This document shows, one piece after another, positions 17,701 through 20,700 of a stretch of DNA of 34,290 nucleotides. Numbering within the stretch: the stretch's first letter is position 1; each line of letters opens with the position of its first letter. The position numbers were made by a program. Source of the stretch: a virus. The stretch lies in UHGV virus genome UHGV-1987335. One strand, 5' to 3'.

Positions 17701-20700
17701 ACCTATCGTAACAACGACTTCTTTGGTCTGGTTGATGGTCTGAACTTTGCTGCTCAGTACCAAGGCAAAAACGATCGTAGCGATTTCGATAACTACACTG
17801 AAGGTAACGGTGATGGCTTCGGTTTCTCTGCTACCTATGAATACGAAGGATTCGGTATCGGTGCAACTTATGCGAAATCTGATCGTACCGACACTCAAGT
17901 TAATGCAGGGAAAGTTCTTCCTGAAGTATTTGCTTCCGGTAAAAATGCAGAAGTTTGGGCCGCAGGTCTGAAATATGACGCTAACAACATTTACCTGGCC
18001 ACTACCTATTCTGAAACCCAGAATATGACTGTATTTGCTGATCACTTCGTTGCTAATAAAGCCCAAAACTTCGAAGCTGTTGCACAATATCAGTTCGATT
18101 TCGGTCTGCGTCCGTCCGTTGCTTACCTGCAATCTAAAGGTAAGGATCTTGGAGTATGGGGCGATCAGGACTTAGTCAAATATGTTGATGTAGGTGCAAC
18201 CTATTACTTCAACAAAAATATGTCTACTTTCGTTGATTACAAAATCAACCTGCTTGACAAAAATGACTTCACTAAAGCACTCGGTGTAAGCACTGATGAC
18301 ATCGTTGCTGTAGGTCTGGTTTACCAGTTCTAATCTGATTACGAAAAAGATATGTTGCGGGAGGCGTTGCCTCCCCAACATATAAGTGGCTCCCTCAAGC
18401 CACTTCCTTTAGAAGCACAACCTTGCTTCTAACTATATAAACCTTCTGTTATATATTACCCTTTATTTTTGGGGGCGTCTCAACGCCCCATTTTTAATAA
18501 CTTTTAGTAAATAATTGGCATATTAATTAGAGTTATTAACAACGATATCCATCTCTAACCGGATATCTAATGCCATTAACATCCCTTCAATTATGCCCTC
18601 AGCCTTCTGTAACCTTTTCCCGATATAACCATCAGAGCAGCAATGCTTACCTGCCAGTGACATGAATGTCATACCGACTACATAATAATCTACTAATAAA
18701 TCATGCAAATCGCTGTTGTTCTTTTTCAGACGGGCCATGCACCCGCAAATGATCATCGCGTCATCGTCACAACATTGTGGGCGAGATTTTACTTTTGAAG
18801 GAATTAATCCCTTAAAACCGGCGGCAATGGACGACCAGGTCACATCTTCATGATTATTAGCCGCCCACGCTCCCCAACGCTCAAGAACCATCTGAATATC
18901 ACGCATCAACTTACTCCACAAAACTCAGACCAGAACGCCAATTACAAGCAAAAATCAACAAAACAGTATTAGTTGATTGTTATCTCTGACTTCATACTCC
19001 TGCTCCTGTCAGTGTTTTGGCGTAATTCTTCAGTATTCGGTAATCGGTCAAAACAGAACCGGGGAAACGATATAAGCGCAGGCGCATCCAGCGGTGGCGA
19101 AGAAGTTCTGCCATATAAAACTCAAACATCATTCATCTCCCTGTTCAGTGATGGTCAGTTCCAGCTTTCCACCTTTGACAACCGGCATCTTCACAACGCG
19201 GTAATCAACGACCTGAGCATCATCCAGCCAGAAACCTGCTTTGGTGAGTGCGTCAAAAGCGGCCTTTTGTAGATTATCCAGGTCACGGCGACGGCGATCC
19301 GGCATGTGACACTCAATGCGGATTTTCACAGGCATAGCCAGGCCGATATCCAGCATTGCGTTTTTAATGATTCGGGCGACGTTTTCGCGGTATGCCTGCC
19401 CCTCTGCGCTGATGTGCGTGCGCCCGCGATTATGGCGGTAATAGCGATTATTGCTCGGCGGCCAGGGTAATGTGATATTGTAGGTATTCACGCCTTAATT
19501 ACCCCCTCTTTCAGCCAGATAACCTGCGTTCTCGCCATACCTTCCAGCGCGCATTCTTTTGCATATCCAGCGTCAACAAAATGCGTGCGACGGTCGATCT
19601 CGTCGTGACAGGCAGAACATGCAATGGTGGCAATCAGGTCTGGCGGTTTGATACCGGTACCGCACAATCCAGCCAGCCGGATATGTGCCAGTACAGACGT
19701 TTCAGGATTGCCATTACATACGCCAGGGATTCTTACCTGGCATTCCCGACCACGCGCTGCTTTTCTCAAATCAGCCATGATTCCTCCTAGCTGCCAGTCG
19801 CAACCATTTTTTATCAACCAGGCTGGCGGTATATCCGAGCAGTGTTGGTATTTCGGATGGTTTCAGCTCAGGCTTACGCTTACGACGATTTGGTACTTTG
19901 TAGATGTGTCCGTTCATGACACGAATAAGCGGTGTAGCCATTACGCCTCCTGCTTATCACGCAGCAGCTGGAACTCGCAGCTCTGCGGAATAGTCAGGTG
20001 GCAGCCAATATTCATCGCCCAGGCTTCAACCTTACACAGGAAGACATACATCTCTCCGGTATCAAGGTCGGAGGTATGGCGTAACGACTGGATAGTGGTG
20101 ATATCACCGGTTACGACATCAACCAGGTCTTTGGTTTCATAACCGAGATATGTGTGTTTGAGAGCATCTTTTACCCAAGCTGGAGTGGCGAACGTTTTAC
20201 CCCTGCTGATGAGGTATTCACTGATTTCGCTGTACCACATGTGGCTGAGTGCATTCTGGGAAAGACTGCGTTTCTCACGCCACGGTTTAAGCACCATGCG
20301 AAAGCATTTGCCCTCCTCCAGATAAGGCTGGATCTGCCGACCGATAGCGGTGAAGTTGCCGCGATGTAATTTGATGCCGTCTTGTGAGAGGTTCACGCTT
20401 CACCTCCGCAGAGGTCAAACGCTAGATGCAAAGAATTGCAGGTGCATTTCTGCATCTGTGAAGGGAGAAGAGAGTTTGGATTGTATGTGCGCATAAACGT
20501 CCCCGTTTAGCGCAGAAGTCACCGGAGTTGTTCAGGCTCCGGTGACATAATTATGCCGTGTTGATTTCCCAAAATCAAAATCGATAGAATTGCTCCTTCT
20601 TAAAACACTTTTACTCTCTGGAAGCTTTTCTTATCTCTCTTGGTGTTATATTAAAACGATTATGAAATCTTTCAGTAAAACGAGAAGGACACTTATAACC

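What the first reader, a model, noticed from the sequence alone, without database searches (positions are those of the whole stretch)
18340..18500. Four consecutive stem-loops between the porin stop and Q
Hairpins at about 18358-18375 (GGGAGGC/GCCTCCC), 18386-18403 (GTGGCT/AGCCAC), 18409-18426 (GAAGCA/TGCTTC) and 18471-18489 (GGGGCG/CGCCCC) are packed into about 135 bp. Only the last has a plus-strand U-tract. On the minus strand this is the first RNA made downstream of Q, where a qut/pause region would sit in the classical arrangement. It could be a stacked terminator or stability element for the porin mRNA, or a structured late leader.
Basis: seen in the sequence. Interest (0 to 1): 0.45.

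Follow-up and report, generated by a model that had tools for sequence, protein, structure and literature searches.

The report
IpeX: prophage porin 3'UTR small RNA
The four stem-loops are the already described IpeX RNA, the tail of a prophage porin message that shuts down the host porins OmpC and OmpF; it is not a late-gene leader, and it carries an exposed stretch antisense to the ompC and ompF ribosome-binding sites, although the reviews I could read say no such complementarity exists.

Summary
The hairpins are real. The plus-strand RNA 18334-18500 folds at -62.9 kcal/mol (z = -10). They lie in the 3' untranslated region of an intact nmpC/lc-type porin gene of a DLP12-like lambdoid prophage. 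All 167 nt match E. coli K-12 DLP12, where this RNA is known as IpeX, a repressor of OmpC and OmpF. Hairpin 4 is the porin terminator. The minus-strand reading (qut or late leader) is wrong. The Q-dependent late promoter and terminator, homologous to PR' of 933W/VT2-Sakai, lie 1.6 kb further on at 16866-16785, next to the holin gene. The hairpin block travels with the porin, not with Q.

New here: the nearly invariant stretch between hairpins 3 and 4 (18436-18468) is antisense to ompC mRNA -31..-3 (26 Watson-Crick pairs, 1 G-U, 1 mismatch, covering the Shine-Dalgarno sequence). It is also antisense to ompF -14..+2 (15 pairs). It does not match ompA or nmpC's own start region, which fits the published specificity. 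Reviews from 2013 to 2025 state that IpeX has no complementarity to its targets; I could not read the primary paper.

Covariation is uninformative because homologues are 87-100% identical, but stems and seed vary far less than loops. The element is already known; the direct antisense mechanism looks overlooked and is easy to test.

The parts
17236..18333 (+). Intact nmpC/lc-type prophage porin gene (365 aa), stop TAA at 18331-18333. Its transcript carries the hairpin region as its 3'UTR.
   Evidence: ORF list. Pfam Porin_1 E = 4.7e-157. Annotated porin/NmpC in homologous records.
18334..18500 (+). IpeX RNA, the 3'UTR of the porin mRNA (167 nt), from the first base after the stop codon to the end of the terminator tail.
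   Evidence: 167/167 nt identical to K-12 DLP12. [quoted passage not shown] MFE -62.9 kcal/mol, z = -10.1.
18350..18383 (.). Hairpin 1: 15-bp stem with a bulged C and a 3-nt loop. On the plus strand it is a structural or protective stem. On the minus strand it is followed by CUUUUU (18349-18344), which makes it a candidate terminator for transcription leaving Q.
   Evidence: -22.2 / -20.8 kcal/mol. One compensatory C:G to U:A change in E. albertii, and the bulge is deleted in L087.
18384..18405 (+). Hairpin 2 (8-bp stem, 6-nt loop).
   Evidence: -10.4 kcal/mol. The stem is kept in 94.7% of cells.
18409..18432 (+). Hairpin 3 (9-bp stem, 6-nt loop).
   Evidence: -9.6 kcal/mol. An A-U to G-U change is tolerated in 8 of 26 variants.
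18434..18455 (+). Weak all-A/U hairpin (7 bp, -1.3 kcal/mol). Its 8-nt loop AACCUUCU displays the anti-Shine-Dalgarno sequence.
   Evidence: Loop bases 18441-18448 have an unpaired probability of 0.67-1.0.
18436..18468 (+). Seed region. It pairs with ompC mRNA -31..-3 in three blocks (18460-18468, 18440-18454, 18436-18438) and with ompF mRNA -14..+2 (18448-18463).
   Evidence: Nearly invariant in 26 distinct homologues.
18472..18495 (+). Hairpin 4 plus U-tract: the intrinsic terminator of the porin/IpeX transcript, preceded by the U-rich UUUAUUUUU.
   Evidence: Terminator scan. -13.9 kcal/mol. The stem is essentially invariant while the loop varies.
18523..18906 (-). Antiterminator Q gene (quuD type, 127 aa), convergent with the porin gene.
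   Evidence: Pfam PF06530 E = 8.5e-54. Distant match to solved Q21. Annotated quuD.
16785..16866 (-). The actual Q-dependent late promoter region: -35 TTTACG (16866-16861), -10 TATGCT (16844-16839), a conserved TAAGAGTGGTTAC block, and terminator AAACCCGC-CGTCGA-GCGGGTTT (16808-16787) with a T-tract. It lies between the porin module and the holin gene.
   Evidence: 77-78% identity to the annotated late promoter, Q-utilisation site and terminator of VT2-Sakai, 24B and Ss-VASD. Terminator scan. 100% identical in K-12 DLP12 upstream of essD.

Best explanation
The hairpin cluster is the body of IpeX, the 3'-untranslated RNA of the prophage porin gene nmpC/lc. Transcription from the porin promoter runs through hairpins 1-3, which have no U-tract on this strand, and stops at hairpin 4, a canonical intrinsic terminator. 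The published account is that the 3'UTR is released from the porin mRNA by processing. The working part is the 33-nt stretch between hairpins 3 and 4 (18436-18468). Its anti-Shine-Dalgarno core CCUUCU sits in the loop of a very weak A/U hairpin, and the adjacent UUACCCUUUAU is single-stranded. I infer that this stretch pairs directly with the translation-initiation regions of the host porin mRNAs. With ompC it forms a 27-bp interrupted duplex over -31..-3. With ompF it forms a 10+5-bp duplex over the Shine-Dalgarno sequence and the AUG. Pairing would block ribosome binding, so the phage porin, whose own leader is not complementary, replaces OmpC and OmpF. Hairpins 1-3 most likely act as stabilising structures: a 5' shield for the processed RNA and a barrier to 3' exonucleases for the upstream porin mRNA. 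Read on the other strand, hairpin 1 plus CUUUUU may terminate transcription coming out of Q. What is shown here: the structure, the identity with IpeX, the location of PR' elsewhere, and the complementarity with its statistics and conservation. What comes from the literature: repression of OmpC and OmpF but not OmpA, and synthesis as part of the porin transcript. What is inferred: base pairing as the mechanism, the role of hairpins 1-3, and the minus-strand terminator. My confidence is about 0.95 that this is IpeX/the nmpC 3'UTR and about 0.7 that it acts by direct pairing.
For: Structure. Identity: 167/167 nt identical to K-12 DLP12, and 99% identity to the DLP12 segment in phage 434B. Reviews place IpeX in DLP12 at 167 nt, made from the porin promoter as part of the porin transcript, and repressing OmpC/OmpF. 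Linkage: the block stays with the porin when Q is lost (L006) and is absent from phages with 89%-identical Q genes but no porin. It occurs in 2503 of 5426 complete E. coli genomes, with a median of one copy. Pairing with ompC: 26 WC + 1 GU + 1 mismatch. Pairing with ompF: 13 WC + 2 GU. RNAcofold interaction energies, net of self-structure: ompC -16.0, ompF -13.5, ompA -5.4, nmpC's own start region -4.3 kcal/mol. With the same method the validated MicF-ompF pair gives -18.0 and MicF-ompC gives -5.5. Seed-ompC duplex: -26.7 kcal/mol, reached by 1/500 shuffled targets and 0/500 shuffled seeds. Local alignment score is 35 against a maximum of 31 in 5000 shuffles, and among 559 real start regions the top ranks are almost all ompC-type porin starts. 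About 35 species gave the same antisense hit at -12..+7 of their ompC-like gene. Accessibility: calculated. Conservation: variable columns are 12% in the seed and 15% in stems against 55% in loops (Fisher p = 0.001 and 0.0006). The ompC target is at least 99% identical in 5330 of 5371 E. coli genomes.
Against: Every specific statement I could read says IpeX does not base-pair, or has no complementarity, with ompC/ompF. The primary paper (Castillo-Keller et al. 2006) could not be read, so I do not know whether its minimal active fragment includes 18436-18468. The ompF duplex is not better than shuffles by energy alone (z = -0.9). Covariation in the hairpins is not significant: one compensatory pair, with 125 of 500 shuffles as good. 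A/U-rich sequences give fairly strong duplexes by chance; for example, the intD start region scores -11.8 with IpeX but also -14.8 with MicF. Nothing here shows the RNA ends, processing or Hfq binding.
Confidence: 0.8

Rival explanations
1. IpeX acts indirectly, as the literature states. The structured RNA would titrate or recruit a factor such as a protein, a ribosome component or another sRNA, and the complementarity to ompC/ompF would be a relic or a coincidence.
For: Reviews say no base pairing is involved and that regulation does not rely only on complementarity. The three strong hairpins are conserved and could be protein-binding modules. The ompF duplex is not significant by energy.
Against: A 27-of-28 pairing centred on the ompC Shine-Dalgarno sequence, in the most conserved and most exposed part of the RNA, is very unlikely to be functionless. 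The predicted specificity (ompC and ompF, but not ompA or nmpC) matches the reported phenotype. The interaction energy is comparable to MicF-ompF.
Confidence: 0.17
2. The main role is as a transcriptional insulator between convergent genes. Hairpin 4 stops porin transcription before it enters Q antisense, and hairpin 1 (minus strand, followed by CUUUUU) stops Q/early-operon transcription before it enters the porin gene antisense. Hairpins 2 and 3 would be extra roadblocks. This could coexist with the IpeX function.
For: H4 is a canonical plus-strand terminator. The H1 minus-strand stem is -20.8 kcal/mol and is followed by C-UUUUU. The two genes converge 189 bp apart.
Against: The scan did not call H1 a terminator. 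Its lower stem is A/U-rich, and the U-tract is degraded in some homologues (CTTTGAG in L006). H2 and H3 have no U-tract on either strand. This reading does not explain the invariant seed.
Confidence: 0.3
3. A minus-strand late-gene leader: PR', qut/pause site and tR' for Q lie in 18340-18520.
For: The position is immediately downstream of Q, as in lambda. There are -10-like hexamers (TAATAT, TATAGT) and a hairpin followed by a U-tract on the minus strand.
Against: There is no promoter-like site with acceptable spacing. The homologue of the annotated PR'/qut/terminator of the same Q family lies at 16866-16785, and it is 100% conserved in K-12 upstream of essD. A published reporter for the DLP12 lysis operon spans -121 to +650, which fits a start site near essD rather than one more than 3 kb upstream of it in K-12. 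The hairpin block is absent from phages with the same Q but no porin.
Confidence: 0.03
4. A REP-like or other dispersed palindromic repeat with no specific function.
For: There are several adjacent palindromes in an intergenic region.
Against: The sequence is single-copy per genome (median 1 place, maximum 3, always next to the porin). There is no Rfam match. The four stems are unrelated to each other in sequence.
Confidence: 0.01

Closest known systems
IpeX sRNA of cryptic prophage DLP12 / phage PA-2 (Castillo-Keller, Vuong and Misra 2006, J Bacteriol 188:576)
   Same: The sequence is identical (167/167 nt to K-12), it has the same position after the nmpC/lc stop codon, and it is on the same strand as the porin. 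It is reported to repress OmpC and OmpF but not OmpA.
   Different: Here the porin gene is intact, with no IS5, so IpeX should be made from the porin promoter as in PA-2. The literature I could read says there is no complementarity to the targets, whereas I find extensive complementarity to both.
MicC and MicF, chromosomal antisense sRNAs against ompC and ompF
   Same: They form an imperfect duplex over the 5' leader, Shine-Dalgarno sequence and start codon of a porin mRNA. By the same calculation the interaction energy is similar (MicF-ompF -18.0 against IpeX-ompC -16.0 kcal/mol). Like them, IpeX ends in a terminator hairpin with a U tail.
   Different: IpeX is not a separate gene next to a porin gene but the 3'UTR of a competing phage porin mRNA. 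Its seed is internal, near the 3' end and behind three 5' hairpins, whereas the MicC/MicF seeds are at the 5' end (established knowledge). One seed region serves two targets in shifted registers.
3'UTR-derived sRNAs released by RNase E (for example CpxQ, SroC, MicL; established knowledge, not tested here)
   Same: They share a terminator with the parent mRNA, carry a conserved seed just upstream of that terminator, and are made by processing of a longer transcript (stated for IpeX in the review read).
   Different: The processing site, the nuclease and Hfq dependence were not examined here. IpeX is carried on a phage moron.
Lambdoid PR'-qut-tR' late leaders (lambda 6S RNA; StxS of Stx phages)
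   Same: They are short structured RNAs close to Q that end at an intrinsic terminator. The window does contain such a unit.
   Different: That unit is at 16866-16785, not in the flagged region. The flagged region has no promoter on the Q strand and no homology to any PR'.

Membership tests
IpeX (nmpC/lc 3'UTR RNA) | Lies between the stop codon of the prophage porin gene and its Rho-independent terminator, on the porin strand | tested here: met
   Stop codon at 18331-18333 and terminator at 18472-18495
IpeX (nmpC/lc 3'UTR RNA) | Sequence identity with the DLP12 ipeX locus of E. coli K-12, about 167 nt | tested here: met
   167/167 nt identical to NC_000913 between quuD and nmpC. The 167-nt size is given in the review read.
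IpeX (nmpC/lc 3'UTR RNA) | Represses OmpC and OmpF but not OmpA | not testable with these tools
   Only predicted here: cofold ddG is -16.0 and -13.5 against -5.4 kcal/mol. The phenotype itself comes from the literature.
Trans-acting base-pairing sRNA that blocks translation initiation | Accessible seed complementary to the Shine-Dalgarno/start region of the target mRNA, beyond chance | tested here: met
   Clearly met for ompC. For ompF there is a 10+5-bp duplex that is not significant by energy.
Trans-acting base-pairing sRNA that blocks translation initiation | Seed more conserved than the rest of the RNA | tested here: met
   4 of 34 seed columns are variable against 11 of 20 loop columns, p = 0.001
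Trans-acting base-pairing sRNA that blocks translation initiation | Terminator hairpin with a U tail and an upstream U-rich stretch (Hfq-type module); Hfq binding | tested here: inconclusive
   The sequence features are present (UUUAUUUUU, hairpin, AUUUUU). Binding cannot be tested, and the literature is mixed on Hfq dependence.
Q-dependent late leader (PR'-QBE/qut-pause-tR') | Sigma-70 promoter on the Q strand just downstream of Q | tested here: not met
   No promoter-like site lies in 18340-18522 on either strand
Q-dependent late leader (PR'-QBE/qut-pause-tR') | Homology to PR'/qut of phages with the same Q family (PF06530) | tested here: not met
   The homologous segment is at 16866-16785 instead
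Q-dependent late leader (PR'-QBE/qut-pause-tR') | Co-inheritance with Q | tested here: not met
   The block is present with the porin but without Q (L006) and absent with Q but without the porin (H36-H40, L005)
Intrinsic (Rho-independent) terminator | G+C-rich stem-loop followed directly by a U-tract on the transcribed strand | tested here: met
   Met for hairpin 4 on the plus strand. Not met for hairpins 1-3 on the plus strand. Hairpin 1 on the minus strand is borderline: C then UUUUU, with an A/U-rich lower stem.
Rfam families | Match to any curated covariance model | tested here: not met
   No match with E <= 1 inside 18300-18560. The only hit in 16000-20000 is a sub-threshold Trp_leader hit at 16781-16903.
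REP / dispersed palindromic repeats | Many dispersed copies per genome | tested here: not met
   Median of one place per genome, always beside the porin/quuD

The most novel reading that the evidence does not exclude
IpeX has been cited for twenty years as a porin regulator that works without base pairing. I propose that it is an ordinary antisense RNA. Its exposed 33-nt seed (18436-18468) pairs with the ompC leader (-31..-3; 27 of 28 positions) and, in a shifted register, with the ompF Shine-Dalgarno sequence and AUG. It appears to have arisen from an inverted copy of an ompC-type 5' leader captured in the 3'UTR of a phage porin gene. A further speculation follows from this. Transcripts that read out of Q on the other strand would carry an ompC-leader mimic fully complementary to IpeX, and could neutralise it on prophage induction.
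Probability: 0.65. Interest if true: 0.55.

Novelty: already known. Interest (0 to 1): 0.45.

Why it matters
The element itself is known, so the flagged hairpins are not a discovery. Two points are still worth keeping.

1. In this widespread prophage type (about 46% of complete E. coli genomes), the porin module is inserted between Q and its late promoter. "Immediately downstream of Q" is therefore not where qut sits, and annotation of late promoters by position alone would go wrong here.

2. The accepted statement that IpeX lacks complementarity to its targets seems to be mistaken. A direct antisense mechanism would explain its specificity: ompC and ompF are targeted, but ompA and the phage's own porin are not. 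From memory, IpeX's effect on ompC was reported to be Hfq-independent and its effect on ompF Hfq-dependent, which would fit a long duplex and a short one. It would also give a simple picture of how a temperate phage swaps the host's major porins, which are phage receptors and antibiotic entry routes, for its own. This can be tested with a few point mutations.

Tried and rejected
- **Rfam.** A permissive search over 16000-20000 found nothing in the region.
- **Covariation.** I collected homologues from phage records, E. coli genomes, IMG/VR and one genome per species. IpeX was found only in E. coli and E. albertii at 87-100% identity, so the 26-sequence alignment is too uniform. It has one compensatory pair and is not distinguishable from shuffles. 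I used a stem/loop/seed substitution contrast instead.
- **Porin search in IMG/VR.** It returned only 99-100% identical copies.
- **Chromosomal relatives.** OmpD/NmpC-like porins of Citrobacter, Salmonella and Enterobacter (74-78% identity) have no IpeX-like 3'UTR.
- **RNAduplex on full-length RNAs.** This gave meaningless end-to-end 'duplexes' and was replaced by RNAcofold net energies and seed-only duplexes.
- **Shuffling.** A dinucleotide-shuffle script timed out, so the shuffles preserve mononucleotide composition only.
- **Manual minus-strand promoter.** A candidate TTGAGA-19 nt-TAATAT was rejected for its spacing and because the real PR' homologue is elsewhere.
- **intD hit.** A strong IpeX score against the prophage integrase start region (window 33127) was set aside, because MicF scores even better on it.
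- **13-nt match.** A match about 680 nt upstream of ompC-like genes (E = 2.5) was treated as chance and not followed.
- **Literature access.** The primary IpeX paper and two key reviews are not held. The supplement that might have held the ipeX primers is not held. The paper cap stopped a look at RIL-seq data. RefSeq K-12 does not annotate ipeX.
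Full report
**Context.** The window carries a DLP12-type lambdoid prophage. On the minus strand lie ybcL, ybcM, ybcN, ninE, ybcO, rusA, ylcG and a 127-aa antiterminator Q (18523-18906). This Q matches Pfam PF06530, the Q21/933W family (E = 8.5e-54), and is distantly related to the solved Q21 protein. An intact porin gene converges on Q from the plus strand (17236-18333; Porin_1, E = 4.7e-157). Beyond it, again on the minus strand, are a P21-type holin (16448-16663), an endolysin and a spanin. The Q-to-porin segment is 99% identical to the K-12 DLP12 segment carried by phage 434B and to many temperate coliphages. 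It occurs in 2503 of 5426 complete E. coli genomes, usually once per genome.

All four inverted repeats are present.
- A fifth, very weak all-A/U hairpin (18434-18455) was missed.
- Only hairpin 4 (18472-18489, followed by ATTTTT) is called as a plus-strand terminator.
- The plus-strand RNA 18334-18500 folds at -62.9 kcal/mol against -30.4 +/- 3.2 for shuffles (z = -10.1). The minus strand gives z = -7.0.

**What it is.** The region is the 3'UTR of the porin gene. Its 167 nt are identical to the sequence between nmpC and quuD in K-12. Papers I could read describe an sRNA called IpeX there: 167 nt, from DLP12 and phage PA-2, synthesised from the phage porin promoter as part of the porin transcript and then processed, and repressing OmpC and OmpF. 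From memory, the abstract of the primary paper (Castillo-Keller, Vuong and Misra 2006) places ipeX between the nmpC stop codon and its terminator. It also reports no effect on OmpA and an Hfq-independent effect on ompC. I could not open that paper. Neither Rfam nor the K-12 RefSeq record annotates the RNA, which explains why a sequence-only reader would not recognise it.

**The minus-strand interpretation fails.**
- No sigma-70-like promoter lies between the Q stop and the porin stop.
- When I searched with the spacer between the porin start and the holin gene, an 83-nt piece (16867-16785, minus strand) matched at 77-78% the end-of-Q region of 933W-type Stx phages. Those records annotate the matched stretch as late promoter, Q-utilisation site and terminator. 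The PR' start site in those phages has been mapped by dRNA-seq close to Q.
- In the window this gives -35 TTTACG (16866-16861), -10 TATGCT (16844-16839), a conserved TAAGAGTGGTTAC block, and a terminator at 16808-16787 that the scan also found.
- The segment is 100% identical in K-12, upstream of essD.
- A published reporter of the DLP12 lysis operon spans -121 to +650, which fits a start site there.

So the whole porin module is inserted between Q and its late promoter, and late transcription does not cross the porin gene antisense. Inheritance supports this. Strain TUM13066 keeps the porin and hairpin block with Q deleted. Phages with an 89%-identical Q but no porin lose homology about 24 bp before the Q stop and carry a different reverse-oriented gene (a Blc lipocalin) at that site.

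**An unexpected result.** A sensitive blastn of the 3'UTR against 80 porin loci from different species returned the same antisense hit in about 35 of them. IpeX nt 103-121 matched -12..+7 around the start codon of ompC-type genes. Against E. coli K-12 sequences the pairing is as follows.
- **ompC:** IpeX 127-135 pairs with -31..-23, IpeX 107-121 with -21..-7, and IpeX 103-105 with -5..-3. That is 26 Watson-Crick pairs, 1 G-U and 1 mismatch, with a small internal loop, and it covers the Shine-Dalgarno sequence GAGGG.
- **ompF:** IpeX 121-130 pairs with -14..-5 (GAGGGUAAUA) and IpeX 115-119 with -3..+2. That is 13 Watson-Crick pairs and 2 G-U.

**Energies and statistics.**
- RNAcofold energies, net of each RNA's own structure, are -16.0 kcal/mol (ompC), -13.5 (ompF), -5.4 (ompA) and -4.3 (the phage porin's own start region).
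- By the same method the validated MicF-ompF pair gives -18.0 and MicF-ompC gives -5.5.
- The seed-ompC duplex (-26.7 kcal/mol) was reached by 1 of 500 shuffled targets and 0 of 500 shuffled seeds.
- The ompF duplex is not significant by this test.
- The local alignment score of 35 exceeded all 5000 shuffles (maximum 31). Among 559 real start regions, the best scores were almost all ompC-type porin starts.

**Accessibility and conservation.**
- The anti-Shine-Dalgarno core lies in the loop of the weak A/U hairpin, and the following UUACCC is single-stranded, with unpaired probabilities of 0.7-1.0.
- Among 26 distinct homologues, 12% of seed columns and 15% of stem columns vary, against 55% of loop columns (p = 0.001 and 0.0006).
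- The ompC target is at least 99% identical in 5330 of 5371 E. coli genomes.
- On the minus strand the seed reads like an ompC leader, and a weaker resemblance continues into the first codons. This suggests the seed began as an inverted copy of a porin 5' end.

[quoted passage not shown] A 2023 paper, citing the primary paper and a 2018 review, says "no complementary sequences exist". A 2025 review says regulation does not rely only on complementarity. I found no paper in the library that reports the pairing. Much of the literature is not held, though, so I cannot be sure it is unpublished. The predicted specificity matches the reported phenotype. A long ompC duplex and a short ompF duplex would also fit the Hfq results as I remember them.

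**Structure conservation.** Pairing is kept in 97.8% of cells. Changes fall in loops, at the bulge (deleted in one variant, which gives a perfect stem), or as G-U wobbles. E. albertii has one true compensatory change in hairpin 1 (C:G to U:A). The sequences are too alike for a significant covariation signal, with 125 of 500 shuffles doing as well.

**Roles of hairpins 1-3.** These are inferred. The likely roles are a 5' structure that protects the processed RNA, and a barrier that protects the upstream porin mRNA from 3' exonucleases. On the minus strand, hairpin 1 is followed by CUUUUU and may end transcription coming out of Q. Its lower stem is A/U-rich, however, and the U-tract is not fully conserved.

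**Verdict.** The feature is real and is the known IpeX/nmpC 3'UTR. The late-leader reading is wrong because the late promoter lies on the other side of the porin module. The added value is the extensive, conserved and exposed complementarity to the ompC and ompF start regions, which points to a plain antisense mechanism that can be tested directly.

Noticed in passing
window 16785-16866 (minus strand): Homologue of the 933W/VT2-Sakai late promoter PR', the adjacent conserved block and a terminator lies between the porin module and the holin gene. It should give a short (~50-60 nt) constitutive leader RNA, comparable in position to the RNA that gives rise to StxS in Stx phages.
   Followed up: partly
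window 18436-18468 minus strand; loci L131, L135, L142, L145: Read on the minus strand, the IpeX seed resembles an ompC 5' leader (AAATAAAGG..ATATAACAGAGGGTTAATA), with weaker similarity continuing into the first ompC codons. This suggests the seed arose by inverted capture of a porin 5' end.
   Followed up: partly
window 33100-33130 (+), start of the intD-like integrase gene (33127-34290): The integrase ribosome-binding region (GGCATAACAGAGGAAAG) shares AUAACAGAGG with the ompC leader and ranks high as an IpeX target (-27.3 kcal/mol duplex). MicF binds this region just as well in the same calculation, so it is probably non-specific.
   Followed up: partly
L005 (phage Lambda_ev087, LR597644) 1545-2603: A Q gene 89% identical to the window's is followed at the same site by a different reverse-oriented gene (Blc lipocalin) with its own terminator-like hairpin. 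The junction just after Q looks like a hotspot for reverse-oriented morons.
   Followed up: no
L006 (E. coli TUM13066, NZ_CP128919) 451-2832: The porin plus IpeX block lies directly beside ybcM. The whole ybcN-to-Q segment is missing, so the porin/IpeX module persists after loss of the phage regulatory genes.
   Followed up: no
window 16781-16903 (minus strand): Sub-threshold Rfam hit to Trp_leader (20.5 bits against a gathering score of 41; E = 0.91) overlaps the PR'/terminator region. It is most likely a generic leader-plus-terminator resemblance.
   Followed up: no
window 18172-18381 (minus strand): A 69-aa ORF starts inside hairpin 1 and runs antisense through the porin 3' end. The 434B record annotates the equivalent as a hypothetical (pseudo) protein with an RBS. 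It is probably spurious.
   Followed up: no
L169 ~1816-1828 equivalents in loci L118-L168: IpeX nt 121-133 (TATTACCCTTTAT) has an exact 13-nt match on the minus strand about 680 nt upstream of many ompC-like genes, on the micF side (E = 2.5). It was treated as chance and not examined.
   Followed up: no
NC_000913.3 574340-574528 (L002): The current RefSeq record of E. coli K-12 MG1655 has no ipeX feature between quuD and nmpC, and Rfam has no IpeX family. Automated annotation will therefore not label this RNA.
   Followed up: yes
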